From Nitrososphaerota archaeon (lineage in GTDB: Archaea > Thermoproteota > Nitrososphaeria_A > Caldarchaeales > Caldarchaeaceae), in contig JBEPYN010000002.1 in the NCBI GenBank assembly GCA_041641305.1, positions 543,509 through 567,508 of the forward strand: a stretch of DNA of 24,000 nt. Reading direction: 5' to 3'. Below, in pieces: positions 2,358-17,537 of this stretch; positions within the stretch are counted from its first letter, which is position 1, and each line of letters begins with the position of its first letter. The notes beneath the pieces are model-generated. The model saw only the letters and a list, made by a program, of their open reading frames with translations. It ran no database searches and was not told where the DNA came from. Both the position numbers and the translations under genes were made by a program.

Positions 2358-2962
2358 CGGAGACCGTCCTCGCCCTTTACCTCCTCTTTACGTAGTCCAC
2401 CAATCCGTGGCAAAGGCCTCCCCGAGTCGGTTACAGCGGCAATCACAACTATTTCGTCGGGCAGAGGCGCGTCGGGAACACGTGCCTCGACAGCGTCATA
2501 GTGGCTTCTCACAAACGCAGCTCTCTTAAAGTGCAGGGGGACGTCGATTGCTGTGCCAGGGGCCCCTAGCTTAGCCGATGAAGGAATTATAGCTTTGCAT
2601 GCATCCTGTCCGCCGCATTCTTCCCGCAGTCCACGACCAAACTTAGGATGGAGAATAGCGTGGCCATGCTCAAGCTCTCCACCCAAACCGATTATCGCGG
2701 CTTTGCCGTAGCTCTCCACATCGGCTGGCGCAATTCCCAGCGCCTCCCGAGCCCTCTTCGCCAAAAATCCGCCCAAGAAATCTCCAGCATCTATGAGCAG
2801 CTGCAAATCCTCCACATATTTGCCGGCGTATGGGTTCTTGACCACAGCCGCGGCGGCGCTTTTTCTCACAGGCTTCTGCAAAACTTTCCCATTCTCCAGG
2901 AACACCTCATCAACATAGACAGCGACTTTACGTATAGCTACACCTGGTGCAGCCTCAAGCAT
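2354..2962 (-). CDS. Amino acid synthesis family protein (PF06684-like, function unknown)
   Basis: Sequence pattern VKNPYAGKYVEDL...LGGFLAKRAREALG recalled from the AA_synth family. The ATG at 2962 shares one base with the TGA of the upstream dehydrogenase (TGATG). An alternative GTG start lies at 2971. Confidence 0.6.
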   Translation of the reverse strand: MLEAAPGVAIRKVAVYVDEVFLENGKVLQKPVRKSAAAAVVKNPYAGKYVEDLQLLIDAGDFLGGFLAKRAREALGIAPADVESYGKAAIIGLGGELEHGHAILHPKFGRGLREECGGQDACKAIIPSSAKLGAPGTAIDVPLHFKRAAFVRSHYDAVEARVPDAPLPDEIVVIAAVTDSGRPLPRIGGLRKEEVKGEDGLR

Positions 2963-4404
2963 CACCACCACCTCGTCGTCACAATCTTGTGGTCTGTAAA
3001 GAATCTTATGGTGTCGACGCGGCTATGAGCTGTTCCGAAGAAGGATTGCTTCCTTCCACCGAGAGGAAAGTAGGCCATGGGCTGTGGGACACCTATGTTT
3101 ACACCCACGTTTCCAACGTTAACATCAAGCACAAACCTGCGTGCTGTGTTCGGGTTTGATGTGAAGATAGAGGCGGCGTTGCCGTAGGGAGTGTTTCTGT
3201 TTATCAGATCGATTGCCTCGTCCAAGCTCTCCGCATAAAGAACCGATACGACGGGGCCGAATATCTCCTCCTTTGCTAGTGGGGAGCTGGGAGACACGTC
3301 TGTGAAAACTGTTGGGCCCACGAAGTAGCCGTTCAAAGGCTTAAGCGGCTTGTTCTTCCTTCCGTCGACGAGAAGCCTCCCAAATTCTTCACCAAGCTCG
3401 ATATATTTCCAAACTCTCTCCAACCCAGCCCTTGAAGCCATCGGGCCCATCTCGGTCTCCTTATCCATGCCGTATCCAAGCCTAAGCATGGACTTGTCCC
3501 GCACCAAGTCGACAACCTTCTCACCCCCCTTTACCACGACAAGGTTGGAGCCGGCCAGACAACGTTGACCAGACATTCCGAAAAAGGATGACACAGCAGC
3601 ATCAGCGGCCTTGACAAAATCTGTGTCAGGCATTACAACAAGGTGGTTTTTGGCACCGGCGTTTATAGACGCGCGTTTCCCCTCTTTCGCGGCCAGCTCA
3701 TACAGAAACTTTCCTGTCTTCGTTGAACCTATGAAACCCACGCCCTGTATATCAGGATGTCTAGCCAGCTTCTCCGCAACTCTACCGTCACCGTGGACAA
3801 CCGACATTACACCCGCAGGAACACCGGCCTCCTTCACAATCCTGGCCACCTCGTTCGCGACAACAGGTGTCACCTCACTCGGCTTAAGCACAACAGTGGC
3901 GCCAAGGGCTATGGCGTAGGGCACGTATGAGGACCATGCGTGCAGCGGAATGTTGAAAGGAGTTATCACGGCAAAGCATCCAAGCGGCTCTCGGATAAGC
4001 TCCTGATCTATGTCTGGGGATATGTTGACCATTTTCTCGCCCTTAGCCAAGGTGTAGGCGAGCGCAGCCGCTGCCTCGACGTTTTCCAGACTCCGTTTAA
4101 CCTCTCCCACCGCCTCCGCATAGGTTCTTCCATGGTTGTCGACAAGTATTCTCGAAAGCAGCTCGGTATCCCTGTTCATCAGCTCACGGATCTTCAACAG
4201 GTAGGCGACCCTTTCCGAGGGTGTAGTTTTCCGAAACTTTTCAAAAGCGGCTACACCTGCCTCAACGGCTTTAGCAACCTCTTCCTCAGTGCTGACGGGG
4301 ACGTAGGCGATGTCTGTGTCAAAAGCAGGGTTCTTTACCGGAATCCTCTCAGAAGACTTCGACTCAACAAACTGCCCAGCAATGAAGTTAGGTAGTAAAC
4401 TCAT
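2962..4404 (-). CDS. mmsA: Aldehyde dehydrogenase, methylmalonate-semialdehyde dehydrogenase-like
   Basis: A 480-aa ALDH-fold protein with catalytic Cys context FFGMSGQRCLA and EEIFGPV. NAGAKNH replaces the usual ELGGK box, which is a hallmark of CoA-acylating MMSDH. Confidence 0.8.
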   Translation of the reverse strand: MSLLPNFIAGQFVESKSSERIPVKNPAFDTDIAYVPVSTEEEVAKAVEAGVAAFEKFRKTTPSERVAYLLKIRELMNRDTELLSRILVDNHGRTYAEAVGEVKRSLENVEAAAALAYTLAKGEKMVNISPDIDQELIREPLGCFAVITPFNIPLHAWSSYVPYAIALGATVVLKPSEVTPVVANEVARIVKEAGVPAGVMSVVHGDGRVAEKLARHPDIQGVGFIGSTKTGKFLYELAAKEGKRASINAGAKNHLVVMPDTDFVKAADAAVSSFFGMSGQRCLAGSNLVVVKGGEKVVDLVRDKSMLRLGYGMDKETEMGPMASRAGLERVWKYIELGEEFGRLLVDGRKNKPLKPLNGYFVGPTVFTDVSPSSPLAKEEIFGPVVSVLYAESLDEAIDLINRNTPYGNAASIFTSNPNTARRFVLDVNVGNVGVNIGVPQPMAYFPLGGRKQSFFGTAHSRVDTIRFFTDHKIVTTRWW

Positions 4405-4441
4405 GACTTTTTCCTCATATAGCGGTATTTTAAACGTGAAT

Positions 4442-4873
4442 CTACTTGCCTGAAATGAGGACGAGCGCTGTGAGGGCGAGGGCTACGCCGACAATCTGCC
4501 TAATGGTCAACACCTCTCCGAATAACAGGAAAGATAGAATCAGTGTGACAAGCGGGTACAGCGATGTGGCGACTACGACTATGGAGGATGGGTTCAGGTC
4601 TAGGGCCAGATAAAATGTCACGGCTCCGAGAAATCCCAGGGCCCCTGCGAGAAGTGCGGCCACCCAGGCCTGATTGGTCGGAGTTACATGAGCCCTCGAG
4701 CTGATTATGAACATCAGAGAGACTATCATGTGCCCTATGGCTGCGACCGCAGCATTGTCACGCCATCCAAGTGCCGATGCTCCCACACGTGCCACAACAC
4801 CCCAGACCCCCCAGATAAACAGCGTCAACAAAACCAACGCAACCCATCTAACCTCCATGGCGATAGATGGCAT
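4442..4873 (-). CDS. Small DMT/EamA-like membrane protein
   Basis: 143 aa with 4-5 predicted hydrophobic helices, the size and pattern of a single EamA domain. An alternative start lies at M6 (4858). The 5' coding end is G+T rich. Confidence 0.6.
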   Translation of the reverse strand: MPSIAMEVRWVALVLLTLFIWGVWGVVARVGASALGWRDNAAVAAIGHMIVSLMFIISSRAHVTPTNQAWVAALLAGALGFLGAVTFYLALDLNPSSIVVVATSLYPLVTLILSFLLFGEVLTIRQIVGVALALTALVLISGK

Positions 4874-4942
4874 ATCACCGGTTCATACCTTTTTCGGTGA
4901 AGAAGCTCAACAACTAAATCTCGGCAGAAAAACGGATAACCC

Positions 4943-5191
4943 ATGAACGTGAGAATAGTATACTGTGTTCCATGCGGCCATCTACCTAATGCTCTCGAGC
5001 TCGCTAAAGACCTTCTCAGCCGATACGGGCAAAGGCTCAACAAGAAATTCTCAGTCACTCTCGACACAAGCGACGGAGGAACCTTCGAAGTCTACATAGA
5101 AGGGGAGAAAATCTTCTCACGCCACGAGGCGCGGCGGTTCCCAACACCTGACGAAATCGCGGGGCAGATTGAAAAGAGGCTTAATGGTTGA
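4943..5191 (+). CDS. Rdx (SelW/SelT/SelH-like) thioredoxin-fold redox protein, Cys form
   Basis: 82 aa. The N-terminal IVYCVPCGH motif (CxxC) followed by GGTFEVYIEGEKIFSRHEARRFP matches the Rdx family pattern. A TAAAT-type element lies about 25-30 nt upstream. Confidence 0.7.
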   Translation: MNVRIVYCVPCGHLPNALELAKDLLSRYGQRLNKKFSVTLDTSDGGTFEVYIEGEKIFSRHEARRFPTPDEIAGQIEKRLNG

Positions 5192-5466
5192 ACCTTCGCC
5201 TAATAGTCTTCGTTGTCGCATGGTCTGCAGCGACCATAGCAGCCCTCACAATCGGACAGCTCTATGAATGGCCAGACAATGTACACATCCGCTATGGCAT
5301 ACCTCTGACCTATGCTGTTCACACCGTCGTCACGATATTGGGAGCTGCTGACCACTGGAGTGTGGACACAAACATTCTCGCCTTTGACTTGGCGATATGG
5401 ATGGCAGGCCTCGTGACCGGAGTAGCTCTGCTATCGAGGCAGAAGACAAGAGATGGACATACCTAG
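5188..5466 (+). CDS. Small hypothetical membrane protein
   Basis: 92-aa ORF with 2-3 hydrophobic segments. Its TTG start overlaps the Rdx stop (TTGA). No recognisable motif. Confidence 0.45.
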   Translation: MNLRLIVFVVAWSAATIAALTIGQLYEWPDNVHIRYGIPLTYAVHTVVTILGAADHWSVDTNILAFDLAIWMAGLVTGVALLSRQKTRDGHT

Positions 5467-5478
5467 CGTAGTGGTAGG

Positions 5479-5997
5479 TCATTTTACTATTTTGAGACGC
5501 GCTGGTGCTGGCGACCTCTCAGGCAATAGCCTTATTCCTTCGTGACGTAGAAGCCAAGCCTTAACGTTCTCGTCACCCCCGTAGCGTCCGATTGAGCCGT
5601 CGGATTTCACTACTCGGTGGCAAGGTATAATTATTGGAACAGGGTTGCGGGCGACCGCGTTTCCAACAGCTCTGTACGCTTTTGGACTGCCCACAGAAGC
5701 AGCCACGTCTCTATAGCTCCGCGTCTCCCCAAAAGGGATGGAGGCGACAACGTTCAACACCTTCCCCGCGAAACCAGAGACACGGAGGTCAATCGGTACA
5801 TTAAAGACCCGCCTTACACCCTCGAAATACTCCCCAAGCTGTCTCTTAACCAAACCATTAACCTCTCCAGCGCCGTCGCCAACTATGAAACCCTCTCTAA
5901 CGAGGCCCTTAACCAAAGCATTCAAACCCACACCCCACACCACCCTAAAAACACCACGCCTCGTAGAAGCAAAACAAACCAAACCAACAGGCGACAT
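5479..5997 (-). CDS. ogt: Methylated-DNA--protein-cysteine methyltransferase (O6-alkylguanine-DNA alkyltransferase)
   Basis: Active-site motif IIPCHRVV and YGGDENVKAWLLRHEG in the C-terminal domain. The start is set at the ATG at 5997 (MSPVGLV...). The ORF stays open to a TTG at 6054 only because the tract lacks A on this strand. Confidence 0.85.
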   Translation of the reverse strand: MSPVGLVCFASTRRGVFRVVWGVGLNALVKGLVREGFIVGDGAGEVNGLVKRQLGEYFEGVRRVFNVPIDLRVSGFAGKVLNVVASIPFGETRSYRDVAASVGSPKAYRAVGNAVARNPVPIIIPCHRVVKSDGSIGRYGGDENVKAWLLRHEGIRLLPERSPAPARLKIVK

Positions 5998-6054
5998 CAA
6001 ACAACCCACCGAAACAACCTCTCCCACAAAAACCACATAAACAAAACCAACCAA
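5923..6054 (-). other. Strand-asymmetric G+T-rich tract (C+A on + strand) covering the ogt 5' region
   Basis: By hand count, 15 of 132 positions on the + strand are not C or A. The sub-tract 6001-6054 has 4 of 54 and 5923-5960 has 2 of 38. Confidence 0.8.
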
Positions 6055-6249
6055 TATGCTTTAACCCAGCTCCATTTTTCCAAACAGATGCGTCGAAAAC
6101 ATGACTAAATTTTCCCGGTCCATTAACAAAATGAACCATAAGCATGCACAAAATAATTGAATTCGCGAGATTGTGGCTGGGCCGCTTGTTAGATGTTGCG
6201 GTTGAAACATTCTTATTAAACATCGTATACAACATATTGGGGTAACCCC

Positions 6250-7050
6250 ATGTCTTCAACCCCTTTAACCGACCTAATTTCTCTGAAAGGTAGAAAAGCG
6301 TTGGTTACTGGGGCTGCTTCAGGGATAGGGCGGTCGGTCTCTGAGAGGTTTGCAGAAGCCGGCGCCAGCCTAGTTCTTGTGGACATCAACGAGCCCGCCC
6401 TAACGAGCGTCGCCTCATTTATTAGAGATGGATATGGGGTTGAGGTTGAGGCGAAAAAAGTAGACCTGTCCAAGAAGAGGGAGATAGACGAGCTATGGTC
6501 CGGCTTGAAGGAGCGGGCTCCAGACATTCTGGTTAATAACGCGGGCATATACGAGTTCCGAGACTTCTTAGAAGTTGATGAGGATTTCCTTGAGAGAACC
6601 CTCGATGTGAACTTGAAGTCCGCGTTTTACATGTGCCAGCACATGTTTAGGACGCGTGGTGATAGGGGTGGTGTGATAGTAAACGTCAGCTCCATCGAGG
6701 CCGTCCTCCATCTCGTCAAAGGCCTGACCCACTACGGCGTGAGCAAAATTGGCCTCGTCGCACTGACCAGGGCTCTGGCACGTGAATATGGAGGAAAGGG
6801 CTTCAGGGTCAACGCCGTTATGCCCGGAGGAATTCATACACCCGGCACAGATAAGGTCAGGAACGAAGCCCTCAAAAGACTCCAGCTCGGATTCTTCATC
6901 ACAGGTATGAATTTCATATCCAGAATACCCTTGAAAAGGCTGGGAGAACCAGACGAAGTGGCAAGGGCTATACTTTTCCTAGCCTCAGACCTATCAAGCT
7001 ACGTGAACGGTGCAGTACTAGTCGTAGACGGCGGATACCTAACAGACTGA
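6250..7050 (+). CDS. Short-chain dehydrogenase/reductase (SDR) family oxidoreductase
   Basis: Has TGAASGIGRS (TGxxxGxG), NNAG, the catalytic YGVSKIGLVALTRALA (YxxxK) and PGGIHTP. TTATTAAA at 6213-6220 lies about 33 nt upstream of the ATG. Confidence 0.85.
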   Translation: MSSTPLTDLISLKGRKALVTGAASGIGRSVSERFAEAGASLVLVDINEPALTSVASFIRDGYGVEVEAKKVDLSKKREIDELWSGLKERAPDILVNNAGIYEFRDFLEVDEDFLERTLDVNLKSAFYMCQHMFRTRGDRGGVIVNVSSIEAVLHLVKGLTHYGVSKIGLVALTRALAREYGGKGFRVNAVMPGGIHTPGTDKVRNEALKRLQLGFFITGMNFISRIPLKRLGEPDEVARAILFLASDLSSYVNGAVLVVDGGYLTD

Positions 7051-7080
7051 GAACCTCTCGACCATGGGCCGATGTATCAG

Positions 7081-7140
7081 TCTGGGAAAAACTAGGCTTC
7101 GCACACCAGAGATATGAGGGTTCAAACCCCTTCCCACCAG
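7081..7140 (+). pseudogene. tRNA-like 3' remnant (anticodon-stem 3' strand, variable loop, T arm, acceptor 3' strand)
   Basis: CCAGA-GATAT-GAGGG-TTCAAAC-CCCTT-CCCACCA-G has the exact spacing of tRNA positions 39-73 with a TTCAAAC T-loop. TCTGG at 7081-7085 can pair with CCAGA. There is no matching 5' acceptor strand (TGGTGGG) and no D arm upstream. A T6 run lies at 7158-7163. Confidence 0.5.
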
Positions 7141-7521
7141 AAAAATATTCTTATGTGTTTTTTCGGCATGGTTTAGTGTTTGAGTATCTTGTTTGCATCT
7201 AATGCGTGCGATAGAAGAAATATGCCGCAAGGAGAAAATTTCAGAGGAAATTATCACGTCTCTAACTCGGAGTTTCCGTGATGAATACTAGTGCCATCGG
7301 CATCTTGGACCAACCATCCCTCCTAGACAACCCTTCAAAGCTATTGTTGACAGTGCATGTAGTGTGTGCGTATTGGGTGGTTGTGCTTAGGTCTTACACT
7401 CCGCCTAATTCCTTAACGGCACAACAAAGGCCAAAGGTATACCCAAAAACTCACAAAAATCTATTGAGAGCTAAAGGATTTATGTCTGTGCTTCTATTGT
7501 AACTTAAATGCGGTGTGGTAG

Positions 7522-9399
7522 ATGGGGGTTATCGTCTGCGTCGGTAGAAAAGGTAATGTAAAGAAATCTATTATCGATGGAGTTCATTTGAGTGATTTAA
7601 GGATTGCTGATGAAGCGCTAGTTAGAGAATTAAGTAGCAAGCATCCAGACGGGTTTGTCCGGATGTGGGGGTTCAAGGAGAAAGTGCGTTATCTTTGGAG
7701 ACGCGCCCGTTTGAGCAAATATGCCCTATTTACTTATCACCCCCGGCAAGCATTGTATGCAGGTAAAATATCCCTTGTTTATCCTTTTAATGAAGACGAT
7801 GAAAAACAGCTAGAAGTCAGTACCATAATATCCACCGATGTTTGGGGGAGAGACCTTGATGGACAGACTTGGAAGTATCTCGTATTTCTTAGTGATGTGA
7901 GAGAGGTTTTACTGGGTGTAGAGACTTTGAATGATTTGACGGGGTATAAGCTACATGTCTTTCGAAACTCTTTTTACATTACCGACAACAAAGCTATGAG
8001 ACTTGAACAGTTTCTAAATCGCTACTTAGAGGAATCCGTCGAACCTTCTCGTAAAATTACGCCTTTTCAGTTAGCGCGGGAGCGACTTCGCTCACTGTTT
8101 GGAATAATGACTCCCAAGTCAGAAGACTCCTCGTTTTTACCGTCTTCAGCCACGCCATATGAGCGGATGAGAAATTTACGAATCCCTGCTAAAGAGGAAT
8201 CGATAGGCACACCGTCCCGAATGATTCGAGACATCGCCGACGCAGAGACATTAAGTGAGGACGCGGAGGTTAAGAGATTAGATGAAGAGTTCATCAACTA
8301 TTTGGATTCGTTGCTAGTGGACCGACTCGAGGAAACAATAAAATTCGGGAAATGGTTATCCGTGTCAACCCTAACTCAATACTATTTTGATTTGTTCGGG
8401 CCAGAAATATTTTTCGATCACATGCTTGCTATTAGTCAGCAATATTCAATATGCGAAACAGAAATTGTGAGCGAGGAGGGCTCATCTAAAATGACAACCG
8501 GTTTTAATTTGGCACTTTTCGGTGAGCCTGGAACTGGAAAGTCATTTACCTCTAGAGACATGATTCTCGGTAGTGAAGATAAAGGCATACCACCCCACGG
8601 AATCCCGGGCCGTAACAGATACTGTGGAGGCATGACTCCCGCAAAGTTCATAGAGGTCGGTCAAGCATATGAAAACAAAAAATTCAATTTCATAGTAACA
8701 GAGTTTAACGACTGGTTCAAATACAGGGGAATGGTGGAGCCGCTTAAGTTAGCCATGGAAAGGGGTTCTATACGGTATGAGACTAAGAGATATACTGTTG
8801 GTCCGTACCGCTTCACCTCCTTCTTTAGCGTGAATTATAATACGCGAGTTTATGACAAAGGATACGGAGTCACTGTGTCGGACCCGAATTTTAACGCTAT
8901 AGAAGACAGGATGTTATGCAGGTTACATAGATTGACCAAAGCAAAATATCAAGAATTGGCAAAAAGTCAGCGAGAAATGATGTTGGGCAAAATGCAATCT
9001 AAGATGAAAATGTTTGCGCCCCGGCTTAGAGATCATTTGACGTTATGTTACGCTATTCAGACACGGAATACTAAAGTAAATAAAACCTTCTCGGAAAAGA
9101 GGGTCTTGCTGACTAAAAACTTGTTTGATATGCTTGATAAGGCCAGAGATTTAGTTTTGGAAAACCTGAGAACAGGAATAGTCCCTTTCTCGGCGAGGCT
9201 AGAAAGCAGAGCTGTTCAATTGGCTTCTGCCATGTCGCTGATGAACTATTTTAATAGGGAGCACTATATTATATCGGTAGATAATATTGCTGCTAAAATG
9301 GCGACTAGATTTTTTGTAGAAGAAGCATGGATCAGGTCAGGCGAGACATTTCCGATCCGTGAAGTCATCAGAAAACTTGACCTAGAATTTATAGACTAA
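7522..9399 (+). CDS. Large AAA+ NTPase with unrecognised N-terminal domain (MCM/BrxL/McrB-style ATPase core)
   Basis: 625 aa. It has Walker A GEPGTGKS (nt 8521-8544), Walker B-like FIVTEFND (8689-8712), AMERGSIRYE (8752-8781), sensor-1-like FFSVNYN (8821-8841) and the Arg-finger candidate IEDRM (8899-8913). Codon composition is low-GC, unlike the neighbouring genes. Confidence 0.75.
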   Translation: MGVIVCVGRKGNVKKSIIDGVHLSDLRIADEALVRELSSKHPDGFVRMWGFKEKVRYLWRRARLSKYALFTYHPRQALYAGKISLVYPFNEDDEKQLEVSTIISTDVWGRDLDGQTWKYLVFLSDVREVLLGVETLNDLTGYKLHVFRNSFYITDNKAMRLEQFLNRYLEESVEPSRKITPFQLARERLRSLFGIMTPKSEDSSFLPSSATPYERMRNLRIPAKEESIGTPSRMIRDIADAETLSEDAEVKRLDEEFINYLDSLLVDRLEETIKFGKWLSVSTLTQYYFDLFGPEIFFDHMLAISQQYSICETEIVSEEGSSKMTTGFNLALFGEPGTGKSFTSRDMILGSEDKGIPPHGIPGRNRYCGGMTPAKFIEVGQAYENKKFNFIVTEFNDWFKYRGMVEPLKLAMERGSIRYETKRYTVGPYRFTSFFSVNYNTRVYDKGYGVTVSDPNFNAIEDRMLCRLHRLTKAKYQELAKSQREMMLGKMQSKMKMFAPRLRDHLTLCYAIQTRNTKVNKTFSEKRVLLTKNLFDMLDKARDLVLENLRTGIVPFSARLESRAVQLASAMSLMNYFNREHYIISVDNIAAKMATRFFVEEAWIRSGETFPIREVIRKLDLEFID

Positions 9400-9641
9400 G
9401 AGACAAAGATAAAAGCTCCGGCTGGAAAACGGTCGAAGGACCCGAGAACCGGAAAACCATTCAAGACCAAGAAACGACTAAACCATGAGCAAGAAGTCTA
9501 ACGGTTTTTTATGAAAGTTGAGTTCACAATAGAAACGAAACCACAGCCTCTCGAAGACATGACGCCGCCGCAAGCCAACACTTTCTCCATTCTTCCTTAG
9601 TCGTACAGAACCTCTAGGCTCTATCACAAAGTAATTAAATG

Positions 9642-9736
9642 TGCCCCGGGGCGGACTTGAACCGCCGACATCCCGGTCTTCAGCCGGGCGATAGAGGAAA
9701 CTTTTGTTTCTCTCTCCCAGTCTGAGCTACCGGGGC
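9642..9736 (-). tRNA. tRNA-Phe (anticodon GAA) with a 21-nt non-canonical intron in the D arm
   Basis: The reverse complement reads GCCCCGG-TA-GCTC-AGACTGGGA-GAG[intron]C-G-CCCGG-CTGAAGA-CCGGG-ATGTC-GGCGG-TTCAAGT-CCGCC-CCGGGGC-A. The anticodon is at 9679-9681. Removing the intron restores the GCTC/GAGC D stem and gives a 74-nt mature sequence without CCA. Confidence 0.85.
9691..9711 (-). other. tRNA-Phe intron (AGAAACAAAAGTTTCCTCTAT) within the 3' strand of the D stem
   Basis: This 21-nt insertion interrupts an otherwise canonical GCTCAGACTGGGAGAGC D arm. Together with flanking exon bases it can form the hairpin AGAG-A-GAAAC/AAAA/GTTTC-CTCT. Confidence 0.7.
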
Positions 9737-9760
9737 GCGGTATGAGTTTTTCATGGCTTG

Positions 9761-9766
9761 ATTTAA
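9761..9766 (-). promoter_or_regulatory. TATA box for tRNA-Phe
   Basis: TTAAAT on the - strand lies 25-30 nt upstream of tRNA +1 (9736). Confidence 0.55.
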
Positions 9767-9823
9767 GGTGTTTGCTGTTTTGTGTTTTTATGTAGGTTGT
9801 TTGGTTTAGGGTGGGGTTGGTGT
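9767..9823 (+). other. Strand-asymmetric G+T-rich tract at the 5' end of the 9811 gene
   Basis: By hand count, only 4 of 57 positions are not G or T (C at 9775; A at 9790, 9794 and 9808). The bias continues at about 73% G+T through 9900. Confidence 0.8.
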
Positions 9824-10350
9824 CTAAGCAGCCTGTGGCGGCGGGGAGGTTTGTTAAAGGCTATGTTTCGGGTTTTGTGGCTAGGGTTGTTTCCGATGGT
9901 ATTGTTTACTTCTTTACTTTGTCTACGCTTGAGGGTGAGGATGTGGTTTTCAGGATGCGGCAGCCCCCTGAATGGGTGTATACAGGCACGCCGGTGGAGG
10001 GGCTGTTGGTGAAGGCTGACGACGTTTACCAGATTCAGGACCTTTCTCAAGCGGCTGAGCTCGCTCAGCCACGTGTCGTCGAGGTCGACCGATGCGATGT
10101 AACCTACGTAGGCACGGGCTCTGCGAAGAAACCTGTTGTCACTGGGTCAGCGGGTAGGATGGTGATTTCCGCGCCGGCGATAAGCATGGGTGTGGCGAGA
10201 AAAGCTGAGAAAATAGGATACACAAAATGTGTGTTGCATGTGGCTGACTTGGCGACGGGGGCGAGAATAGTGGCGGTCCAAACACCTCAAGAACACAGAC
10301 GAGACACCTCCATGAAGAAAGTGATAACTATGCTGAGTCATGGCGATTAG
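9811..10350 (+). CDS. Hypothetical protein, possibly with a beta-barrel/OB-like N-terminal half
   Basis: 179-aa ORF with a GTG start. The stop lies 3 nt before the topoisomerase ATG. The alternating hydrophobic pattern GRFVKGYVSGFVARVVSDGIVYFFTLSTLEGEDVVFRM is only suggestive of an OB-like barrel. The start codon is uncertain because the A-poor tract is open in several frames. Confidence 0.5.
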   Translation: MGLVSKQPVAAGRFVKGYVSGFVARVVSDGIVYFFTLSTLEGEDVVFRMRQPPEWVYTGTPVEGLLVKADDVYQIQDLSQAAELAQPRVVEVDRCDVTYVGTGSAKKPVVTGSAGRMVISAPAISMGVARKAEKIGYTKCVLHVADLATGARIVAVQTPQEHRRDTSMKKVITMLSHGD

Positions 10351-10353
10351 TAG

Positions 10354-12156
10354 ATGACTTTGGACAAAGGTGCGATGGGTGGAGAGAAGCTGATTATAGT
10401 GGCCGAGAAGGCCAGCGTTGCTAGGGCGATAAAGGCGGTGGTCGCCGCAGCCAAGGCCAACGCCGTGGTCTCATCCGTTAGAGGCCACATGATGGAGGCT
10501 GATCTGCCGGATGGCTACGAATGGGGTGCAAAGCATCCTCTAGAGATTATCAAGCTGAGGAAAGTTGTTGACAAAATTTCGGACAACCGTGTGTTTGAGC
10601 AGCTGGTCAAAGTTTTCAGCGGGGGAGGCTTGCTCGTTATAGCGACGGACAACGACTCCGAGGGAGAGCTCATCGGCTATGAAATTCTACAGGTTTACCG
10701 CCGTGTCAGGGGCGGCGAACCCGTTGTCTTCAGGATGCGTTTTAACTCTGTTGACCGCCGTGAGCTCTTCGCAAGCTTACGGAACCTCGAGAAAGGGCTT
10801 AACATGCGCTGGGTTGAGAAGGCGCGTTTCCGCCAAATCTTCGACTTGGTCACAGGAGCCGCATTCACGCGGTTGCTTACGCTGTCTACTCGAAGGCTTG
10901 CACCTGTCAGGGTGATTAGCTGGGGCTCATGCCAAACACCAACTCTAAACTTCGTCGTCGAAAGAGAGAAAGAAATACAGCGGTTCAAACCGCAAAAATA
11001 CTGGGTTCTAGAAGCCACTCTGAGAACTGCAGGCGGAGAAGAGTTCAAGGCTGCGACGCAGCAGATATGGAGCAGGGAGAAGGCGGAGCAGGCTTTTGAG
11101 AAGGCTCGGAAAGCTGGTGAGGCTGTTGTCACAGCCTACAGCAAGGCTGAGAAAACCCTGCCAAGGCCGCTTCCGATGAGGACCGACGACGTTCTCAGGG
11201 ATTTGACGAGGATAACGGGGGTTTCGGCTAACAGGCTGCTGGCCATGATGGAGGAGCTTTACGCCGAGGGCTACATCAGCTATCCACGCACCGACACCAA
11301 CAGGTATAGACGCGGCTTCGACTTCCAAACACCTCTCAACGCCGTAACGGCCGCAGATGCCCTGCGGGACGCGAAACCAGATAAATCAGAACCCGTTCCA
11401 AGAAACGGGTCAAGAGACGATGGAGCTCATCCGCCCATTTACCCTGTGGCCACCTACCGCGGCACCGGTGTTTTAATGCAAATATGGGAATACATAGCCC
11501 GGCGCTTCTACGCCAACGCCTTCTTCGACGACGCTGTTCAGTCAACCTCAAGGGCCGAAATAGACATAGATGAGTTAACATTTTCAGCCGAGGGCTCGAC
11601 GACCACAAAACAAGGTTACCTACAGGTCTTCACATATTTCCGGCCCCGCGATAAGCCACTTCCGGAGCTCATGGTGGGTGAAAAGCTTCGGATAATCGAC
11701 GTGGCTATTCGGGAGGATGAGACAAAGCCTCCGCCACGCCTGACCGAGGCCGACCTCCTGAAACTGATGGAGAAAAACGGTATAGGAACCGATGCAACAC
11801 GCGCATCCTTCCCTCAGCTGATAACTGAGCGCAACTACGCCGTGAGGGTTGGCAGGGTTTTCAAGCCGACGCCTCTGGGAATGGCGTTGATCGAGGCTTT
11901 AGCCGAGGCAGATACACGGCTTGTAACACCTGAGACGAGGCGGCTTGTCGAAGACTATATGGCGAAAATCGAGCGCGGGGAAACAGGGTTTGAAGAAAGC
12001 CTTGAGCAAAGCCTCCGACTCTACGAGGAGCTTCTCAAGAGATGCAGCGATAAAATAGATGAGATCAGCAGTAGCCTCGCCCAACACATCAAACCCATGG
12101 CTCGAAAGAAAGCGGCTAAAAAGAAACATGATGGATTCACAAACCTTAATAAATAA
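10354..12156 (+). CDS. topA: DNA topoisomerase, type IA (topoisomerase III-like), lacking C-terminal zinc fingers
   Basis: TOPRIM elements LIIVAEKASVARAI and IATDNDSEGELIGYEI are present. It also has CQTPTLNFVVERE, the active-site Tyr context EGYISYPRTDT (Tyr codon 11281-11283) and GIGTDATRA. The C-terminal tail ARKKAAKKKH is Lys-rich. Confidence 0.9.
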   Translation: MTLDKGAMGGEKLIIVAEKASVARAIKAVVAAAKANAVVSSVRGHMMEADLPDGYEWGAKHPLEIIKLRKVVDKISDNRVFEQLVKVFSGGGLLVIATDNDSEGELIGYEILQVYRRVRGGEPVVFRMRFNSVDRRELFASLRNLEKGLNMRWVEKARFRQIFDLVTGAAFTRLLTLSTRRLAPVRVISWGSCQTPTLNFVVEREKEIQRFKPQKYWVLEATLRTAGGEEFKAATQQIWSREKAEQAFEKARKAGEAVVTAYSKAEKTLPRPLPMRTDDVLRDLTRITGVSANRLLAMMEELYAEGYISYPRTDTNRYRRGFDFQTPLNAVTAADALRDAKPDKSEPVPRNGSRDDGAHPPIYPVATYRGTGVLMQIWEYIARRFYANAFFDDAVQSTSRAEIDIDELTFSAEGSTTTKQGYLQVFTYFRPRDKPLPELMVGEKLRIIDVAIREDETKPPPRLTEADLLKLMEKNGIGTDATRASFPQLITERNYAVRVGRVFKPTPLGMALIEALAEADTRLVTPETRRLVEDYMAKIERGETGFEESLEQSLRLYEELLKRCSDKIDEISSSLAQHIKPMARKKAAKKKHDGFTNLNK

Positions 12157-12179
12157 ATAATGTTGAGACGTGCTGAGAG

Positions 12180-13328
12180 ATGGTTGTGCTGTTTGCCGCG
12201 TTTCTGAACCCGTCGTCAGGTGGAGACAATATCCTATCCCTATTGCTGTCGCTTGTATGGTTTGCTTTTTTGATGATTTTCTTCCTTTATCCATCGTTTG
12301 GTCAGCGTATGCAGCTCTCTTACATGCTTCGAGACCTTGAGAGGAAGTTGAACAAGCTCAAGCTCATCAAGGACGAGATTAACCAGATAACTGTTGAGAC
12401 AATTAAGCGGGTTGGTAAGCCTGAGAAAGACCCCGCGCCCGACATAAACAGGCTGAGCGAGTTCTTCGTAATCCAGCCCGAATCAATGGACCCCTATGGC
12501 TTGGTCTACAAACTGGAGCATATTCTCGAGACAGGGGAATCGGTGTATGAGGAGGAGGTGGCTAAGCTGGCGCCCCATGCGACAGAGCATCAGGTCAAGT
12601 CTTTGACAAACCTTGTAGAAGTTCTCCGCGGGATCAACACAATATACCGCGTCGTCCGCCACTACTACCTGCTGGGTAAAAAGACCGCCAACATCTACAT
12701 GGTTCTACAGATACAGATGATTCTGCCGCAGATAATAGAGATAGCCGAGTCCTATAGGCAGGCGGCTGTCGCCTTCAGCAAGGGGCAGCCGATAGGCGAC
12801 GGTGTTGGCCCGCTTGTTGCCGCGAAGCTTGTGGATGGTTCGGAGAAAGATAGGTATGAGATTGCTAAGGACACGGTTGTTCAGGAGATTGAGCTGGATA
12901 ACAGGAGGGTCTATGTTGTCAGGGCCATTGGGCCGGGTGGAACGGTGGGAAGACCCGGGGAAGGCGTCAAACAGCTTGTTGAGAGGCTCGGTGAAAACCC
13001 GAAGCTCATTATAACCATCGATGCGGCCCTCAAGCTTGAGGGGGAGGAGACGGGTAAAATCGCCGAAGGAGTGGGTGTAGCGATAGGGGGGCCTGGTGTT
13101 GACAAGTATAAGATAGAGGAGCTGGCGAAGAGCCGCGGCATTCCGCTATATGCCTTCGTCATCTTCCAATCCATCACAGAGGCCATAACACCCATGCGTG
13201 AATCCATCGCCAAAGCTGCTGACCAAGTGCTTGAGAAAGTTAAGCAGCTGATTCTGGAAAAAGTGAAGAGCGGCGAGTCCGTGATAGTCGCAGGCATCGG
13301 TAACACCATCGGGGTGGGCTTGGGATGA
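12180..13328 (+). CDS. Membrane-anchored conserved archaeal protein (DUF1512-like, function unknown)
   Basis: 382 aa with an N-terminal TM helix LSLLLSLVWFAFLMIFFLYP, then a coiled-coil-like segment and a Gly-rich globular C-terminal half. The family name is recalled from memory and not verified. Confidence 0.6.
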   Translation: MVVLFAAFLNPSSGGDNILSLLLSLVWFAFLMIFFLYPSFGQRMQLSYMLRDLERKLNKLKLIKDEINQITVETIKRVGKPEKDPAPDINRLSEFFVIQPESMDPYGLVYKLEHILETGESVYEEEVAKLAPHATEHQVKSLTNLVEVLRGINTIYRVVRHYYLLGKKTANIYMVLQIQMILPQIIEIAESYRQAAVAFSKGQPIGDGVGPLVAAKLVDGSEKDRYEIAKDTVVQEIELDNRRVYVVRAIGPGGTVGRPGEGVKQLVERLGENPKLIITIDAALKLEGEETGKIAEGVGVAIGGPGVDKYKIEELAKSRGIPLYAFVIFQSITEAITPMRESIAKAADQVLEKVKQLILEKVKSGESVIVAGIGNTIGVGLG

Positions 13329-13546
13329 GCGAGCCATCAATTGTATTAGGTGGACGATCAAGAGAGAAGACACCGGAGCCTCTTACGTTCCTCAAATGCC
13401 TCAGCTGCGGTGTCGAGAACTCGAGACCATTCAGAGAAAATGACTATGTTTTGAAGATTGTTGAGGATGAGAAATGTCCCAAATGCGGCGGCACTCGAAG
13501 CAAGATTGTGAACATCTACGTGCCCGAGAAGAAGATGTCTAAGTAA
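13325..13546 (+). CDS. Small zinc-ribbon protein
   Basis: 73 aa with CLSC...CPKC (two CxxC pairs). Its ATG overlaps the stop of the upstream gene (ATGA). Confidence 0.6.
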   Translation: MSEPSIVLGGRSREKTPEPLTFLKCLSCGVENSRPFRENDYVLKIVEDEKCPKCGGTRSKIVNIYVPEKKMSK

Positions 13547-14441
13547 TCACCGTGCAGCCGTCCTTTTCCACCAAAACAGTGTGCTCGGCCTGCGCCACCG
13601 GCTTATTCAGCCTCTCAACGAGCACAGGATAGGCCTTAACCCTGCCGGTTTTGACCAGCCTTTCATGGACGGAAATGGTTTCATGTCCCAAGTCTGTAAG
13701 CCATCGCAGGCTGTAGGGGAGGCCGTCGAACCTCTCGGATAAGGTCTTCAAGAGGTTGGACTCGGGGGTGGATGCTTGGCCGGTGAAGGGCTTGCCCAGC
13801 CTGAATATTGTCGCGTTTCTATGCTCAACTACTTCTCCGAAGCCGTCGGCGACTGTTGCGAAAGGCTCTATCGCGTATATGTGGCCTTCTTGAAGCTTGG
13901 CCCCGTCTCCTGCAGCTATGTTGGGTATTGAGACGCCTGCGTGAAGGTTGTATCGCTGAATCTCATGGCCTGTGAGGTTGCGTATAGGCTTCACACCATA
14001 ACGGGTCAAAACGTTCTGCACCGCCGCCCCGACCGCGGAGACCTTTACACCCGCGGACACAGTTTTCACAGCAGCTTTCAAAGCCTCTTCAACAGCTGTC
14101 TTCAACATTTCACCAACCGCGGTGTCGGTGACTGTTACAGCGGTGTCGGCGATGTATCCATCCAACAGTACACCGAAATCAATTTTCGCAACAAAATTTC
14201 TATGCAGAGTTGAGGTGTCGCCTGGAGGAGGAGAATAATGTGCCGCAACACCGTCTACGGAGATGTTGCATGGGAAAGCAGGCTTGCAGCCACTGTCAAA
14301 AATCATGTTCTCTATCTTCTCCGCTATCTGCAGCAGACTAACACCCGGAGAGACGATTAAGGGCACAGCTGCTCTGATGCGTCTCGCAACCTCCCCAGCT
14401 GTGAACAACGCATCCAGCCCAGACAACCCGTTACACAGCAT
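13539..14441 (-). CDS. map: Methionine aminopeptidase, type 2 (archaeal)
   Basis: Metal-ligand contexts AHYSPPPGD, KIDFGVLLDGYIADTAVTV, GHEIQRYNLHAG, YAIEPFAT and AQAEHTVLV are typical of archaeal MetAP. Confidence 0.9.
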   Translation of the reverse strand: MLCNGLSGLDALFTAGEVARRIRAAVPLIVSPGVSLLQIAEKIENMIFDSGCKPAFPCNISVDGVAAHYSPPPGDTSTLHRNFVAKIDFGVLLDGYIADTAVTVTDTAVGEMLKTAVEEALKAAVKTVSAGVKVSAVGAAVQNVLTRYGVKPIRNLTGHEIQRYNLHAGVSIPNIAAGDGAKLQEGHIYAIEPFATVADGFGEVVEHRNATIFRLGKPFTGQASTPESNLLKTLSERFDGLPYSLRWLTDLGHETISVHERLVKTGRVKAYPVLVERLNKPVAQAEHTVLVEKDGCTVIT

Positions 14442-14474
14442 CCTGATCCAGGTTATTTACCCTAGCGCCAGCCG

Positions 14475-16588: not shown

Positions 16589-16652
16589 ACATTCTTCAGC
16601 ATCATCCGACCCCTTTATACATTATCTAGTCAACCTTTCTCGAACATATGTT

Positions 16653-16726
16653 TGCGGCCGGCGGGATTTGAACCCGCGACTACCAGCGTGGAAGGCTGGT
16701 GTCCTACCAGGCTAGACCACGGCCGC
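16653..16726 (-). tRNA. tRNA-Gly (anticodon UCC)
   Basis: The reverse complement reads GCGGCCG-TG-GTCT-AGCCTGGTA-GGAC-A-CCAGC-CTTCCAC-GCTGG-TAGTC-GCGGG-TTCAAAT-CCCGC-CGGCCGC-A, a full 74-nt cloverleaf. Confidence 0.9.
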
Positions 16727-17478: not shown

Positions 17479-17502
17479 CCCTCGGCGAGATGGGGAATAA
17501 GC

Positions 17503-17512
17503 ATATAAATAT
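17503..17512. promoter_or_regulatory. Near-palindromic TATA element, candidate bidirectional promoter for tRNA-Met (+) and MOSC (-)
   Basis: ATATAAATAT is centred about 30 nt from tRNA-Met +1 (17538) and about 30 nt from the MOSC TTG (17478) on the opposite strand. Confidence 0.5.
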
Positions 17513-17537
17513 TCTTCACCACCCCTACACATGGAAC

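What the first reader, a model, noticed from the sequence alone, without database searches (positions are those of the whole stretch)
7051..9641. Low-GC island wedged between two inward-facing tRNA 3' ends
Composition changes abruptly between the SDR stop (7050) and the 3' end of tRNA-Phe (9642). Hand counts of G+C on printed lines give 21/60 (7561-7620) and 19/60 (8641-8700) inside the segment. Outside it they give 32/60 (6661-6720) and 34/60 (10381-10440). The segment holds one long ORF flanked by about 470 nt and about 240 nt of apparently non-coding DNA, in a window where most genes abut or overlap. Both edges carry tRNA 3' ends pointing inward: a tRNA-like remnant on the + strand (7081-7140) and intact tRNA-Phe on the - strand. 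tRNA 3' ends are classical integration targets of archaeal viruses, plasmids and integrative elements. No integrase-like ORF is visible, so this would be a decayed or cargo-only remnant. A 9-nt direct repeat AGAACCTCT sits at both edges (7050-7058 and 9607-9615), but at 9 nt it could be chance.
Basis: partly seen in the sequence, partly recalled or inferred. Interest (0 to 1): 0.7.

Follow-up and report, generated by a model that had tools for sequence, protein, structure and literature searches.

The report
Strain-specific single-gene defence-like islet
A 2.5-kb stretch of foreign-looking DNA next to a tRNA gene in a hot-spring archaeon (Candidatus Caldarchaeum) is a real insertion that sister strains lack. 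It carries one gene that joins a methylated-DNA "reader" domain to a ring-motor ATPase, a combination not seen elsewhere.

Summary
The low-GC island is real. The segment has 42.5% GC against 51.7% for the rest of the window, and the ORF's GC lies 5 sd below that of the other genes. It is also a true insertion polymorphism. Three conspecific Ca. Caldarchaeum MAGs (flanks 99.3-99.7% identical) and one relative at 86-93% have 76 bp where the window has 2,506 bp (7127-9632).

The proposed mechanism is not supported. There is no integrase, no duplicated piece of tRNA-Phe and no att repeat. The left "tRNA remnant" is only a T-arm-like hairpin (tRNA model E about 1). The right edge lies 9 bp outside the tRNA. 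The 9-mer repeat occurs four times in the window.

The DNA flanking the island (7041-7126 and 9633-10311) is 8-39% divergent from the conspecifics, against a background of 0.3-0.7%. The island therefore arrived inside a tract of about 3.3 kb, most likely by homologous recombination from a related lineage; an assembly chimera is the alternative.

The cargo is one 625-aa protein. Its N-terminal domain is YTH-like, of the Thermococcus gammatolerans McrB type that reads modified DNA. Its C-terminal part is an MCM-like AAA+ ATPase from a large unannotated archaeal family. The nearest members of that family are operonic with type IIG restriction-methylases. The predicted function is modification-dependent, type IV-like sensing of foreign DNA; this is inferred, not shown.

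The parts
7127..9632 (.). Island proper: 2,506 bp with no counterpart in conspecific genomes, replacing 76 bp of their SDR/tRNA-Phe spacer
   Evidence: blastn of the window against L081, L085, L086 and L082. There is no significant similarity to the 76 bp it replaces. GC is 0.42-0.44.
7041..7126 (.). Left divergent flank: homologous to the empty-site spacer but 10% (7041-7090) to 39% (7091-7126) divergent, against 0.3% just upstream
   Evidence: For 7091-7126 there are 22/36 ungapped matches in register, p about 3e-5, so the homology is real.
9633..10311 (.). Right divergent flank (tRNA-Phe plus most of the 179-aa gene): 7.8% divergent from conspecifics, then an abrupt return to 0.3-0.7% after 10311
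   Evidence: There are 54 differences in 688 columns, against 2 in the next 689. L081, L085 and L086 are 99.9-100% identical to one another here.
7522..9399 (+). Only gene of the island: 625-aa fusion protein (YTH-like reader plus MCM-like AAA+ ATPase)
   Evidence: ORF list. It has no match in Pfam and only insignificant matches (E 0.007-0.03) in NCBIfam, PHROGs and PADLOC, and no PDB sequence hit.
7522..8091 (+). N-terminal domain (aa 1-190): PUA-like/YTH-like modified-base reader of the T. gammatolerans McrB-N type
   Evidence: A profile of 21 homologues matches PDB 6P0F, 6P0G and 6UT5 with E = 2e-6. The AF2 model has pLDDT 93.9. Foldseek's top hits are 6P0G/6P0F (E = 2e-7, TM 0.57-0.63), followed by EVE, YTH and ASCH domains. 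W49, W59, W108 and F122 are invariant in the domain family.
8239..9396 (+). C-terminal module (aa 240-625): MCM-like AAA+ ATPase with lid and a winged-helix-like end. Walker A is GEPGTGKS at aa 334-341 (nt 8521-8544)
   Evidence: It is 55-69% identical to more than 1,300 archaeal proteins. AF2 pLDDT is mostly 75-97. The top 50 Foldseek PDB hits are all MCM subunits, best E = 1.3e-6, probability 1.00.
9642..9736 (-). Intact tRNA-Phe(GAA) with a 21-nt non-canonical intron (about 9691-9711) in the D-arm. Its 3' end is 9 bp from the island edge
   Evidence: Rfam tRNA 45.8 bits. ARAGORN calls Phe(GAA) after intron removal. The tRNA is present with the same intron in the empty-site genomes.
7116..7140 (+). 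It is not a verifiable tRNA fragment
7050..7058 (+). Left copy of the 9-mer AGAACCTCT. It lies in DNA shared with the empty-site genomes
9607..9615 (+). Right copy of the 9-mer AGAACCTCT, 18-26 bp inside the island. It is one of four copies in the window

Best explanation
The window comes from a Candidatus Caldarchaeum (Caldarchaeales, 'Aigarchaeota') genome. Between the SDR gene and tRNA-Phe it carries a 2.5-kb strain-specific accessory cassette that sister strains lack. The cassette is one self-contained gene with its own non-coding upstream and downstream DNA.

Acquisition. The island did not enter this genome by site-specific integration. It came in as part of a tract of about 3.3 kb (about 7041-10311) whose homologous parts are about 8% divergent. 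This implies homologous recombination with DNA from a related Caldarchaeum lineage that already had the island at the same locus. The polymorphism, the refined boundaries and the divergent tract are shown. That recombination happened in vivo, rather than in the assembler, is inferred.

Function. The gene encodes a chimeric protein:
- Its first ~190 residues are a YTH-like (PUA/EVE superfamily) domain of the kind that the type IV restriction GTPase McrB of Thermococcus gammatolerans uses to bind methylated DNA.
- This domain replaces the usual N-terminal domain of a large, unannotated archaeal family of MCM-like AAA+ ATPases.
- The closest members of that family are co-transcribed with type IIG restriction-methyltransferases.

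The most likely working model follows. The reader domain recognises a modified base (for example N6-methyladenine) on invading DNA. It tethers an ATP-driven, probably hexameric, MCM-like ring that loads on or translocates along that DNA. The ring then blocks replication or hands the DNA to a nuclease encoded elsewhere. This would be a modification-dependent (type IV-like) defence function built on a non-McrB motor. The folds, the domain swap and the genomic associations are shown. DNA binding, specificity, oligomerisation, ATPase activity and any defence phenotype are inferred.
For: Organism: the topoisomerase next door is 99% identical to 'Candidatus Caldarchaeum sp.' MAG proteins.

Empty sites: in L081, L085, L086 and L082 the SDR stop is followed by about 163 bp, then tRNA-Phe, a 177-aa gene and the topoisomerase.

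Boundaries: window 1-7126 matches L081 at 99.3% with no gaps, and 9633-22156 matches at 99.1%. L085 and L086 give the same boundaries.

Polarity: the more distant L082 is also empty and shares the 76-bp spacer. A relative at 69% (L083) lacks the gene as well.

Recombination tract: mismatches run at about 1 per 250 bp in the flanks. They rise to 19 in 7001-7126 and to 54 in 9633-10311. The three conspecifics are 99.9-100% identical to one another in that tract, whereas the window is 92.2% identical to them.

Foreign composition.

Protein:
- The N-terminal domain family has 61 hits. It is fused elsewhere to AAA_5 (McrB-like) motors. One such gene (L091) is followed by an overlapping 491-aa gene and lies beside an SNF2/NOV_C helicase.
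- The profile matches TgMcrB-N in the PDB with E = 2e-6, and the fold match has E = 2e-7.
- TgMcrB-N is YTH-like and prefers N6mA DNA (PMC7544203).
- The C-terminal module folds like MCM.
- The type IIG REase-MTase (PADLOC E = 6e-93) lies immediately upstream on the same strand, 0-6 bp away, in L003, L005, L074, L087 and L089/L090. It is adjacent and convergent in L001 and L002.
- Other large DNA methylases are adjacent in L017, L024, L077, L033 and L036.
- In a neighbour-joining tree the window's module falls in an 11-member clade; 7 of its other 10 members are MTase-linked.
- The full fusion has no other full-length homologue among 5.8 billion protein clusters.
Against: No nuclease or McrC-like partner is encoded in or beside the island, so no effector step is visible.

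Most family members sit in conserved, housekeeping-looking synteny (42 of 80 loci with a coiled-coil partner, mostly Bathyarchaeia, plus Nitrosocaldales). The family is unusually conserved (55-69% identity across phyla). Both features are atypical for defence genes.

PADLOC has no model for the family.

The Walker B motif reads TE rather than DE.

The divergent tract could be an assembly chimera between co-occurring lineages rather than recombination in vivo. No donor genome carrying the island was found.

The event that first put the island at this locus is unexplained. A 76-bp deletion accompanies it.
Confidence: 0.6

Rival explanations
1. One reading: the segment is the decayed, cargo-only remnant of a virus, plasmid or integrative element that integrated site-specifically into a tRNA 3' end. 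It has since lost its integrase and att repeats.
For: The island abuts the 3' end of tRNA-Phe, 9 bp away. Its composition is foreign. [quoted passage not shown] A T-arm-like hairpin sits at the left edge.
Against: No recombinase or fragment was found. There is no tRNA-Phe duplication. The hairpin fails tRNA models, is unrelated to tRNA-Phe and has the wrong orientation for a direct repeat. The 9-mer is not an att site. The junction is outside the tRNA. The cargo family is absent from viral, plasmid and phage collections and is not next to a tRNA elsewhere. In this strain the island came with divergent homologous flanks.
Confidence: 0.12
2. The island is ancestral and the other genomes lost it by deletion. 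The low GC would then reflect only the gene's own constraints.
For: There are no target-site duplications or att repeats to mark an insertion. The replaced 76 bp has no counterpart in the window.
Against: All four empty genomes, including the outgroup L082 at 86-93%, share the same 76-bp spacer and the same junctions. A relative at 69% also lacks the gene. The ORF's GC is 5 sd below that of native genes and its GC3 is 3 sd below. The window, not the others, carries the odd haplotype in the flanks.
Confidence: 0.04
3. The mosaic is an assembly artefact. The island and its 8%-divergent flanks belong to a different, co-occurring Caldarchaeum lineage, and the assembler stitched them into the contig of the main strain.
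For: The genomes compared are MAGs. The divergence switches abruptly at about 7041 and about 10311, as expected at graph junctions.
Against: The contig is 702,665 bp long and is recorded from two sources, NCBI and Logan. The switch points lie in ordinary coding sequence rather than in repeats. Even if the rival is true, the island still exists at this locus in a Caldarchaeum genome, so only the 'recombination' step changes.
Confidence: 0.15
4. The protein is not a defence factor. It is a chromosomal DNA-transaction or regulatory ATPase, for example a replication or repair accessory that reads the host's own methylation marks.
For: The MCM-like family shows conserved synteny in Bathyarchaeia and Nitrosocaldales, and very high sequence conservation. 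There is no nuclease partner. One YTH-like homologue sits among housekeeping genes (L093).
Against: The gene is strain-specific and compositionally foreign. Its ATPase module groups with the clade that is operonic with type IIG restriction-methylases. Its reader domain is otherwise found on McrB-like motors in defence-island contexts.
Confidence: 0.25

Closest known systems
McrB of type IV McrBC restriction systems, specifically Thermococcus gammatolerans McrB (PDB 6P0F, 6P0G, 6UT5)
   Same: The layout is an N-terminal modified-DNA reader fused to a ring-forming AAA+ motor. The reader domain is homologous by profile (E = 2e-6) and by fold (E = 2e-7, TM about 0.6) to TgMcrB-N, a YTH-like domain (PMC7544203).
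   Different: The motor is not the GTP-specific McrB/AAA_5 type. It has no AAA_5 hit and its fold matches MCM subunits. No McrC nuclease gene is adjacent.
MCM replicative helicases (archaeal MCM, eukaryotic Mcm2-7)
   Same: The AAA+ core, lid and C-terminal winged-helix-like region of aa 240-625 superpose on MCM ATPase domains. The top 50 Foldseek hits all have probability 1.00.
   Different: Identity is only 11-15%. There is no Pfam MCM hit and no MCM N-terminal domain: the N-terminus is YTH-like here, and in the rest of the family it is a different domain of about 240 aa. Neither the sequence nor the family profile finds MCM in the PDB.
Unannotated archaeal MCM-like AAA+ family (e.g. Thermofilum adornatum N186_07075, WP_020963060.1; UniRef label 'MCM domain-containing protein')
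   Same: The C-terminal ~380 aa are 55-69% identical, and all 90 invariant columns of the 22-sequence alignment are kept.
   Different: The window's protein lacks the family's conserved N-terminal domain (DKxxERVILLKRFLP...FRGKYYTV...GKKGYALLKAL). It carries the YTH-like domain instead. It also lacks the type IIG methylase or coiled-coil partner found next to other members.
tRNA-targeting integrative elements of archaea (SSV-type and pNOB8-type integrases), including the 1.87-kb insertion at tRNA-Thr in Caldiarchaeum subterraneum (Sugahara et al. 2012, PMC3293823)
   Same: It is a small, compositionally foreign, population-variable insertion next to a tRNA gene in the same genus-level lineage.
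   Different: There is no recombinase and there are no direct repeats of the tRNA. The insertion point is outside the tRNA. In this strain the island was acquired with divergent homologous flanks.
EVE/YTH-associated archaeal restriction-like systems (COG1743 methylase - DUF499 Orc/Cdc6-like ATPase - SWI2/SNF2 nuclease; Bell et al. 2020, PMC7641849)
   Same: The logic is shared: a PUA-like modified-base reader is combined with an ATPase related to replication initiation or helicase proteins, and with large DNA methylases in relatives.
   Different: The ATPase family is different (MCM-like, not Orc/Cdc6-like). There is no helicase-nuclease gene.

Membership tests
tRNA-integrating archaeal element (SSV/pNOB8-type) | Tyrosine recombinase gene, or recognisable fragments of one, inside the element | tested here: not met
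   Pfam at E<=0.1 finds nothing on the 625-aa ORF or on the three small ORFs in the non-coding flanks. tblastn of 1,352 neighbour and homologue proteins against the flanks gives only noise.
tRNA-integrating archaeal element (SSV/pNOB8-type) | Direct att repeats that duplicate part of the target tRNA at both ends | tested here: not met
   The best local match of tRNA-Phe to the island scores 12, against a shuffle mean of 10.2; 23 of 200 shuffles reach that score. The 9-mer AGAACCTCT is not an att site.
tRNA-integrating archaeal element (SSV/pNOB8-type) | Insertion point inside or overlapping the tRNA gene | tested here: not met
   Homology to the empty sites resumes at 9633, 9 bp beyond the tRNA's 3' end at 9642.
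tRNA-integrating archaeal element (SSV/pNOB8-type) | Empty-site alleles in relatives and atypical composition | tested here: met
   Four empty genomes. GC z = -5.
McrB (type IV McrBC restriction) | N-terminal domain that binds modified DNA | tested here: met
   Homology and fold match to TgMcrB-N. Binding itself cannot be tested here.
McrB (type IV McrBC restriction) | McrB-type GTPase AAA+ domain (Pfam AAA_5) | tested here: not met
   There is no AAA_5 hit. The fold matches MCM instead. Homologues of the reader domain that are true McrB-like proteins do hit AAA_5.
McrB (type IV McrBC restriction) | Adjacent McrC nuclease gene | tested here: not met
   The island holds one gene. The flanking genes are SDR, tRNA-Phe, a conserved 179-aa gene and topoisomerase, all of which are also in the empty genomes.
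MCM helicase | MCM-type AAA+ fold | tested here: met
   The top 50 Foldseek hits are all MCM subunits, probability 1.00.
MCM helicase | Sequence membership (Pfam MCM) and the MCM N-terminal OB/Zn domain | tested here: not met
   There is no Pfam hit. The N-terminus is a PUA/YTH-like fold. Profile and sequence searches of the PDB find no MCM.
Unannotated archaeal MCM-like AAA+ family | Conserved ~380-aa C-terminal module with its invariant residues (K340, E394, N438/N440, R463, R559 and others) | tested here: met
   Alignment A1: 43-54% full-length identity, 55-69% over the module, and all invariant columns present.
Unannotated archaeal MCM-like AAA+ family | Family-type N-terminal domain (~240 aa) | tested here: not met
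   Hits cover only about 60% of the query. The N-terminus does not align in A1. It belongs to another domain family.
YTH/EVE (PUA-like) modified-base readers | PUA-like fold with conserved aromatic pocket residues | tested here: met
   Foldseek finds TgMcrB-N, EVE (1wmm, 2p5d), YTH (Mmi1) and ASCH. W49, W59, W108 and F122 are invariant. That these residues form the pocket is inferred.
YTH/EVE (PUA-like) modified-base readers | Selective binding of a modified base | not testable with these tools
   This needs binding assays with m6A, m5C and unmodified DNA.

The most novel reading that the evidence does not exclude
The unannotated MCM-like AAA+ family is the motor of a previously unrecognised class of archaeal restriction-like defence systems, typically a two-gene 'type IIG methylase-nuclease plus MCM-like ATPase' operon. 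The window's gene would be a natural conversion of that system into a stand-alone, modification-dependent (type IV-like) version. In this reading, the usual N-terminal domain and the methylase partner, which would mark self DNA, have been replaced by a fused YTH-like methyl-DNA reader. It would be the first case of an MCM-type ring ATPase used for immunity rather than replication.
Probability: 0.3. Interest if true: 0.75.

Novelty: new variant of a known kind. Interest (0 to 1): 0.5.

Why it matters
The island itself is ordinary biology: a strain-variable accessory gene in a spacer next to a tRNA. It is nevertheless a clean, datable example of gene flow by homologous recombination in uncultivated Caldarchaeales. 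It also shows that proximity to a tRNA is not evidence of integrase-mediated insertion.

The cargo is the more interesting part. That family has at least 1,351 clusters in the protein collection and 325 loci among GTDB species genomes. Its nearest members are operonic with type IIG restriction-methylases. If the family proves to be a defence motor, it would add a new branch to archaeal immunity. It would also give a testable case of how self/non-self logic can flip from modification-protected to modification-targeted by a single domain swap.

Tried and rejected
- tRNA remnant at 7081-7140: rejected. ARAGORN finds nothing at the default or 90% threshold and gives only inconsistent calls at 80% or below. 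Rfam finds nothing at the gathering score or at E<=10 on 7000-7560. In truncated mode on 7098-7142 the tRNA model scores 12.9 bits, E = 1.1.
- att or target-site duplication from the 9-mer AGAACCTCT: rejected. There are four copies in the window, and the left copy is shared with the empty sites.
- Longer imperfect repeats or terminal inverted repeats at the edges: only chance-level matches. The 11-nt perfect inverted repeat at 7167/9477 is one of several expected by chance. The 21-nt match at 71% between 7243-7263 and the tRNA intron is not significant.
- Counterpart of the replaced 76 bp inside the island: none.
- Gene remnants (integrase, methylase, neighbours of homologues) in the 471-nt and 242-nt flanks: none.
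- Sequence-family assignment of the 625-aa protein with Pfam, NCBIfam, PHROGs, PADLOC and PDB sequences: nothing significant. The weak TraC, mad8 and SIR2 hits have E of about 0.007-0.014. The family profile against PDB sequences also finds nothing.
- Viral or plasmid origin of the family: no hits in IMG/VR, PLSDB or GenBank phages.
- tRNA adjacency as a family trait: among the 80 related loci the nearest tRNA to the homologue lies more than 1.3 kb away, and only 5 loci have one within about 4 kb; only the window has one next to the gene.
- Retrieving the window's own contig: exact-product look-ups failed. The genome is not among the GTDB representatives scanned.
- Literature search for an MCM-like ATPase tied to defence or methylases in archaea: nothing relevant by title or abstract.


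Full report
**1. Checking the observation**

The compositional break is real. The 500-bp GC profile drops to 0.41-0.44 between 7001 and 9500, while the rest of the window is mostly 0.50-0.56.

The single long ORF (7522-9399, 625 aa) has GC 0.421, against 0.521 +/- 0.020 for the other genes of at least 150 aa (z = -5.0). Its GC3 is 0.435 against 0.585 +/- 0.050 (z = -3.0). The tetranucleotide distance of 2.5-kb windows to the rest of the window peaks at 7001-9500, at 0.36 against 0.14-0.22 elsewhere. The non-coding flanks measure 471 and 242 nt.

ARAGORN reports tRNA-Lys(TTT) because it misplaces a 21-nt non-canonical intron in the D-arm. After removing AGAAACAAAAGTTTCCTCTAT it calls a canonical 74-nt tRNA-Phe(GAA).

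The left 'tRNA remnant' does not hold up. ARAGORN does not call it at the default or 90% threshold, and Rfam does not call it at the gathering score or at E<=10. The tRNA model in truncated mode on the 45-nt stretch alone gives 12.9 bits, E = 1.1. What exists is a T-arm-like hairpin (GAGGG/TTCAAAC/CCCTT, 7116-7132) followed by CCCACCA.

The 9-mer AGAACCTCT is present at both stated positions. However, it occurs four times in the window, all on the + strand, where 0.29 copies are expected.

**2. It is a true insertion polymorphism**

The neighbouring type IA topoisomerase identifies the organism as a Candidatus Caldarchaeum sp.. Contigs carrying the closest topoisomerases were fetched:
- L081: GCA_038736885.1
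- L085: GCA_038888475.1
- L086: ENA ERZ27314177
- L082: Logan DRR101363, a more distant relative

All four have the SDR gene, then about 163 bp, then tRNA-Phe, a 177-aa gene and the topoisomerase.

By blastn, window 1-7126 equals L081 2069-9194 (99.3%, no gaps) and window 9633-22156 equals L081 9271-21803 (99.1%). L085 and L086 give the same junctions. The window therefore has 2,506 bp (7127-9632) where the others have 76 bp, and the two stretches share no detectable similarity.

The outgroup L082 (86-93% identical in the flanks) is empty and shares the 76-bp spacer. A relative at 69% (L083) also lacks the gene. The empty state is therefore ancestral and the island is derived.

**3. How it got there**

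None of the marks of tRNA-targeted site-specific integration is present:
- No recombinase or recombinase fragment was found.
- There is no partial copy of tRNA-Phe in the island on either strand. The best local score is 12, the shuffle mean is 10.2, and 23-33 of 200 shuffles reach that score.
- No meaningful terminal direct or inverted repeats were found.
- The right junction is 9 bp beyond the tRNA's 3' end.
- The left copy of the 9-mer lies in DNA that the empty genomes also have, followed by 76 more shared bases. It cannot be an att core.

The flanks tell a different story. The window differs from L081 at about one site per 250 bp. The exceptions lie right next to the island:
- 5 differences in 7041-7090
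- 14 differences in 7091-7126
- 54 differences in 9633-10311, after which there are none until 10578

In the right-hand tract the three conspecifics are 99.9-100% identical to one another, and the window is 92.2% identical to them. Outside the tract all four are 99.3-100% alike. The 179-aa gene evolves only slightly faster than the topoisomerase between L081 and L082 (16.7% against 13.4%). Rate variation therefore cannot explain a more than 10-fold local excess. The stretch 7091-7126 still aligns in register (22/36 matches, p about 3e-5) but at only 61% identity.

The simplest reading is that the window's lineage imported a tract of about 3.3 kb (about 7041-10311) by homologous recombination. 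The donor would be a Caldarchaeum lineage about 8% divergent that already carried the island at this locus. A chimeric metagenome assembly would produce the same pattern and cannot be excluded here. The contig's length (702,665 bp, recorded from two sources) argues mildly against a chimera. The original insertion event, in the donor lineage, remains unexplained.

**4. The cargo**

The 625-aa protein has no match in Pfam and nothing significant in NCBIfam, PHROGs or PADLOC. It has no PDB sequence match. It consists of two unrelated modules.

*C-terminal module (aa ~240-625).* It belongs to a very large family: more than 1,351 clusters at E<=1e-3, and 325 loci among GTDB species genomes. The members come from Thermofilaceae, Bathyarchaeia, Korarchaeia, Methanomethylicia, Nitrosocaldales and others. 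They are 55-69% identical over this module.
- The AF2 model of this part is confident.
- Its 50 best Foldseek matches in the PDB are all MCM subunits (best E = 1.3e-6, probability 1.00, 11-15% identity).
- The Walker A lysine (K340), a Walker B glutamate (E394), sensor-1 asparagines and candidate arginine-finger and sensor-2 arginines (R463, R559) are invariant in the alignment. The assignment of these roles is by analogy to MCM.

*N-terminal module (aa 1-190).* The window's first ~245 residues do not align with the family's own conserved N-terminal domain.
- An exhaustive HMMER search with this part finds 61 proteins. In them the same ~170-aa domain stands alone, precedes a short C-terminal region, or is fused to AAA_5 (McrB-like) ATPases.
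- A profile of 21 of these domains matches the N-terminal domain of Thermococcus gammatolerans McrB (PDB 6P0F, 6P0G, 6UT5) with E = 2e-6.
- The AF2 model (pLDDT 93.9) is closest to 6P0G/6P0F (E = 2e-7, TM 0.57-0.63). EVE, YTH and ASCH domains follow.
- That domain is described as YTH-like, with a preference for N6-methyladenine DNA (PMC7544203).
- One McrB-like homologue (L091) is followed by an overlapping 491-aa gene and sits beside an SNF2/NOV_C helicase, a defence-island context.

No other protein in the 5.8-billion-cluster collection has the full-length fusion.

**5. Context of the ATPase family**

Among the 80 genome loci with relatives, adjacency to a tRNA is not a family trait. Three kinds of context appear:
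- Closest clade. The members most similar to the window's module (64-69% identity) have a protein of about 1,035 aa immediately upstream on the same strand, 0-6 bp away. This is seen in L003, L005, L074, L087 and L089/L090; in L001 and L002 the gene is adjacent and convergent. Pfam calls the protein Eco57I/N6_Mtase/MmeI_Mtase. PADLOC calls it a type IIG restriction enzyme-methyltransferase (E = 6e-93). In a neighbour-joining tree of the module, the window falls in an 11-member clade in which 7 of the other 10 members have this partner.
- Other methylase partners. Large DNA methylases of other families are adjacent in L033 and L036 (Eco57I-like) and in L017, L024 and L077 (N6_N4_Mtase).
- Stable synteny. 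In 42 of the 80 loci, mostly Bathyarchaeia, a coiled-coil protein of about 545 aa lies directly upstream in a conserved neighbourhood. Nitrosocaldales show conserved synteny of their own. This looks vertical rather than mobile.

The family is absent from IMG/VR, PLSDB and GenBank phage records.

**6. Interpretation**

The island is a one-gene accessory cassette. Its product combines a reader of modified DNA, of the kind used in type IV restriction, with a motor whose nearest relatives work alongside restriction-methylases. I therefore favour a modification-dependent, type IV-like anti-invader role.

The weak points are these:
- No nuclease is visible.
- The family is highly conserved, and much of it sits in stable synteny.
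- There is no experimental or curated precedent for the family.

A housekeeping or regulatory role cannot be excluded.

Relative to known systems, the protein works like McrB (reader plus ring motor) but is not a member. It fails the AAA_5/GTPase and McrC criteria. It folds like MCM but is not an MCM by sequence or by N-terminal architecture.

**7. Verdict**

The 'two inward-facing tRNA ends', the remnant and the 9-mer repeat are not confirmed.

The island is foreign and empty sites exist, but integrase-mediated tRNA integration is not supported. Homologous-recombination import is the better-supported route in this genome.

The island as such is ordinary. The gene is a new variant of a known kind of system and points to an uncharacterised, widespread archaeal ATPase family that merits a proper census.

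Noticed in passing
window 9642-9736 (-), intron about 9691-9711: tRNA-Phe(GAA) carries a 21-nt non-canonical intron in the 3' side of the D-arm. ARAGORN mis-calls the precursor as tRNA-Lys(TTT). The same intron is present in the empty-site genomes, so it is unrelated to the island. Sugahara et al. 2012 (PMC3293823) linked an intron at position 24/25 of a Caldiarchaeum tRNA-Thr to integration of a mobile element.
   Followed up: partly
window 2175-2183, 7050-7058, 9607-9615, 22345-22353 (+): The 9-mer AGAACCTCT occurs four times, all on the + strand, against 0.29 expected from shuffles. No shuffle reached four copies. The reason for the excess is unknown.
   Followed up: partly
L003 2701-7603; L005 2506-7395; L074 3425-8325; L087 3869-8749; L089 3894-8818: A recurrent two-gene operon: a type IIG restriction-methyltransferase of about 1,035 aa (PADLOC E = 6e-93), followed 0-6 bp later by the MCM-like AAA+ ATPase. 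It is found in Desulfurococcales, Bathyarchaeia, Korarchaeia-type and other thermophile contigs. It is a candidate for an undescribed defence system.
   Followed up: partly
42 of 80 loci, e.g. L018 7783-9429 (+), upstream of the ATPase gene at 10001-: Mostly in Bathyarchaeia, the ATPase gene is preceded by a conserved coiled-coil protein of about 545 aa. That protein has only weak coiled-coil-type hits to LmuB, ZorA and JetC models. The pair sits in a conserved neighbourhood (S-adenosylhomocysteine hydrolase-like gene, small membrane protein, nucleotidyltransferase).
   Followed up: partly
L091 5001-8148; proteins P0263, P0265, P0267, P0271: The TgMcrB-N-like YTH domain also occurs on AAA_5 McrB-like motors. 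In L091 such a gene is followed by an overlapping 491-aa gene and lies next to an SNF2/NOV_C helicase and a metallo-beta-lactamase-fold protein. The domain also occurs on proteins of about 310-320 aa whose C-terminal part shows a D...E-x-K-like motif by eye. These may be type IV restriction enzymes; this was not verified.
   Followed up: partly
L006, L011, L013 (MAG CALJDG01); L036 and L073 (DAOUTL01); L005 and L047 (JAWCEH01): Some MAGs carry two or three copies of the MCM-like ATPase family in different contexts. This suggests paralogous subtypes within one genome, or contamination of the bin.
   Followed up: no
window about 9776 and 9741-10311: There is a 9-bp indel in the promoter region and a cluster of substitutions in the conserved, unannotated 179-aa gene whose stop lies 3 nt before the topoisomerase start. 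The gene is 177 aa in the conspecifics and has no Pfam hit. Its function is unknown.
   Followed up: partly
window 5751-6250: A local GC dip to 0.45 with strong strand asymmetry (GC skew -0.40, AT skew +0.30). It lies at the 5' end of the methyltransferase-like (DNA_binding_1) gene and in the divergent promoter region it shares with the SDR gene.
   Followed up: no
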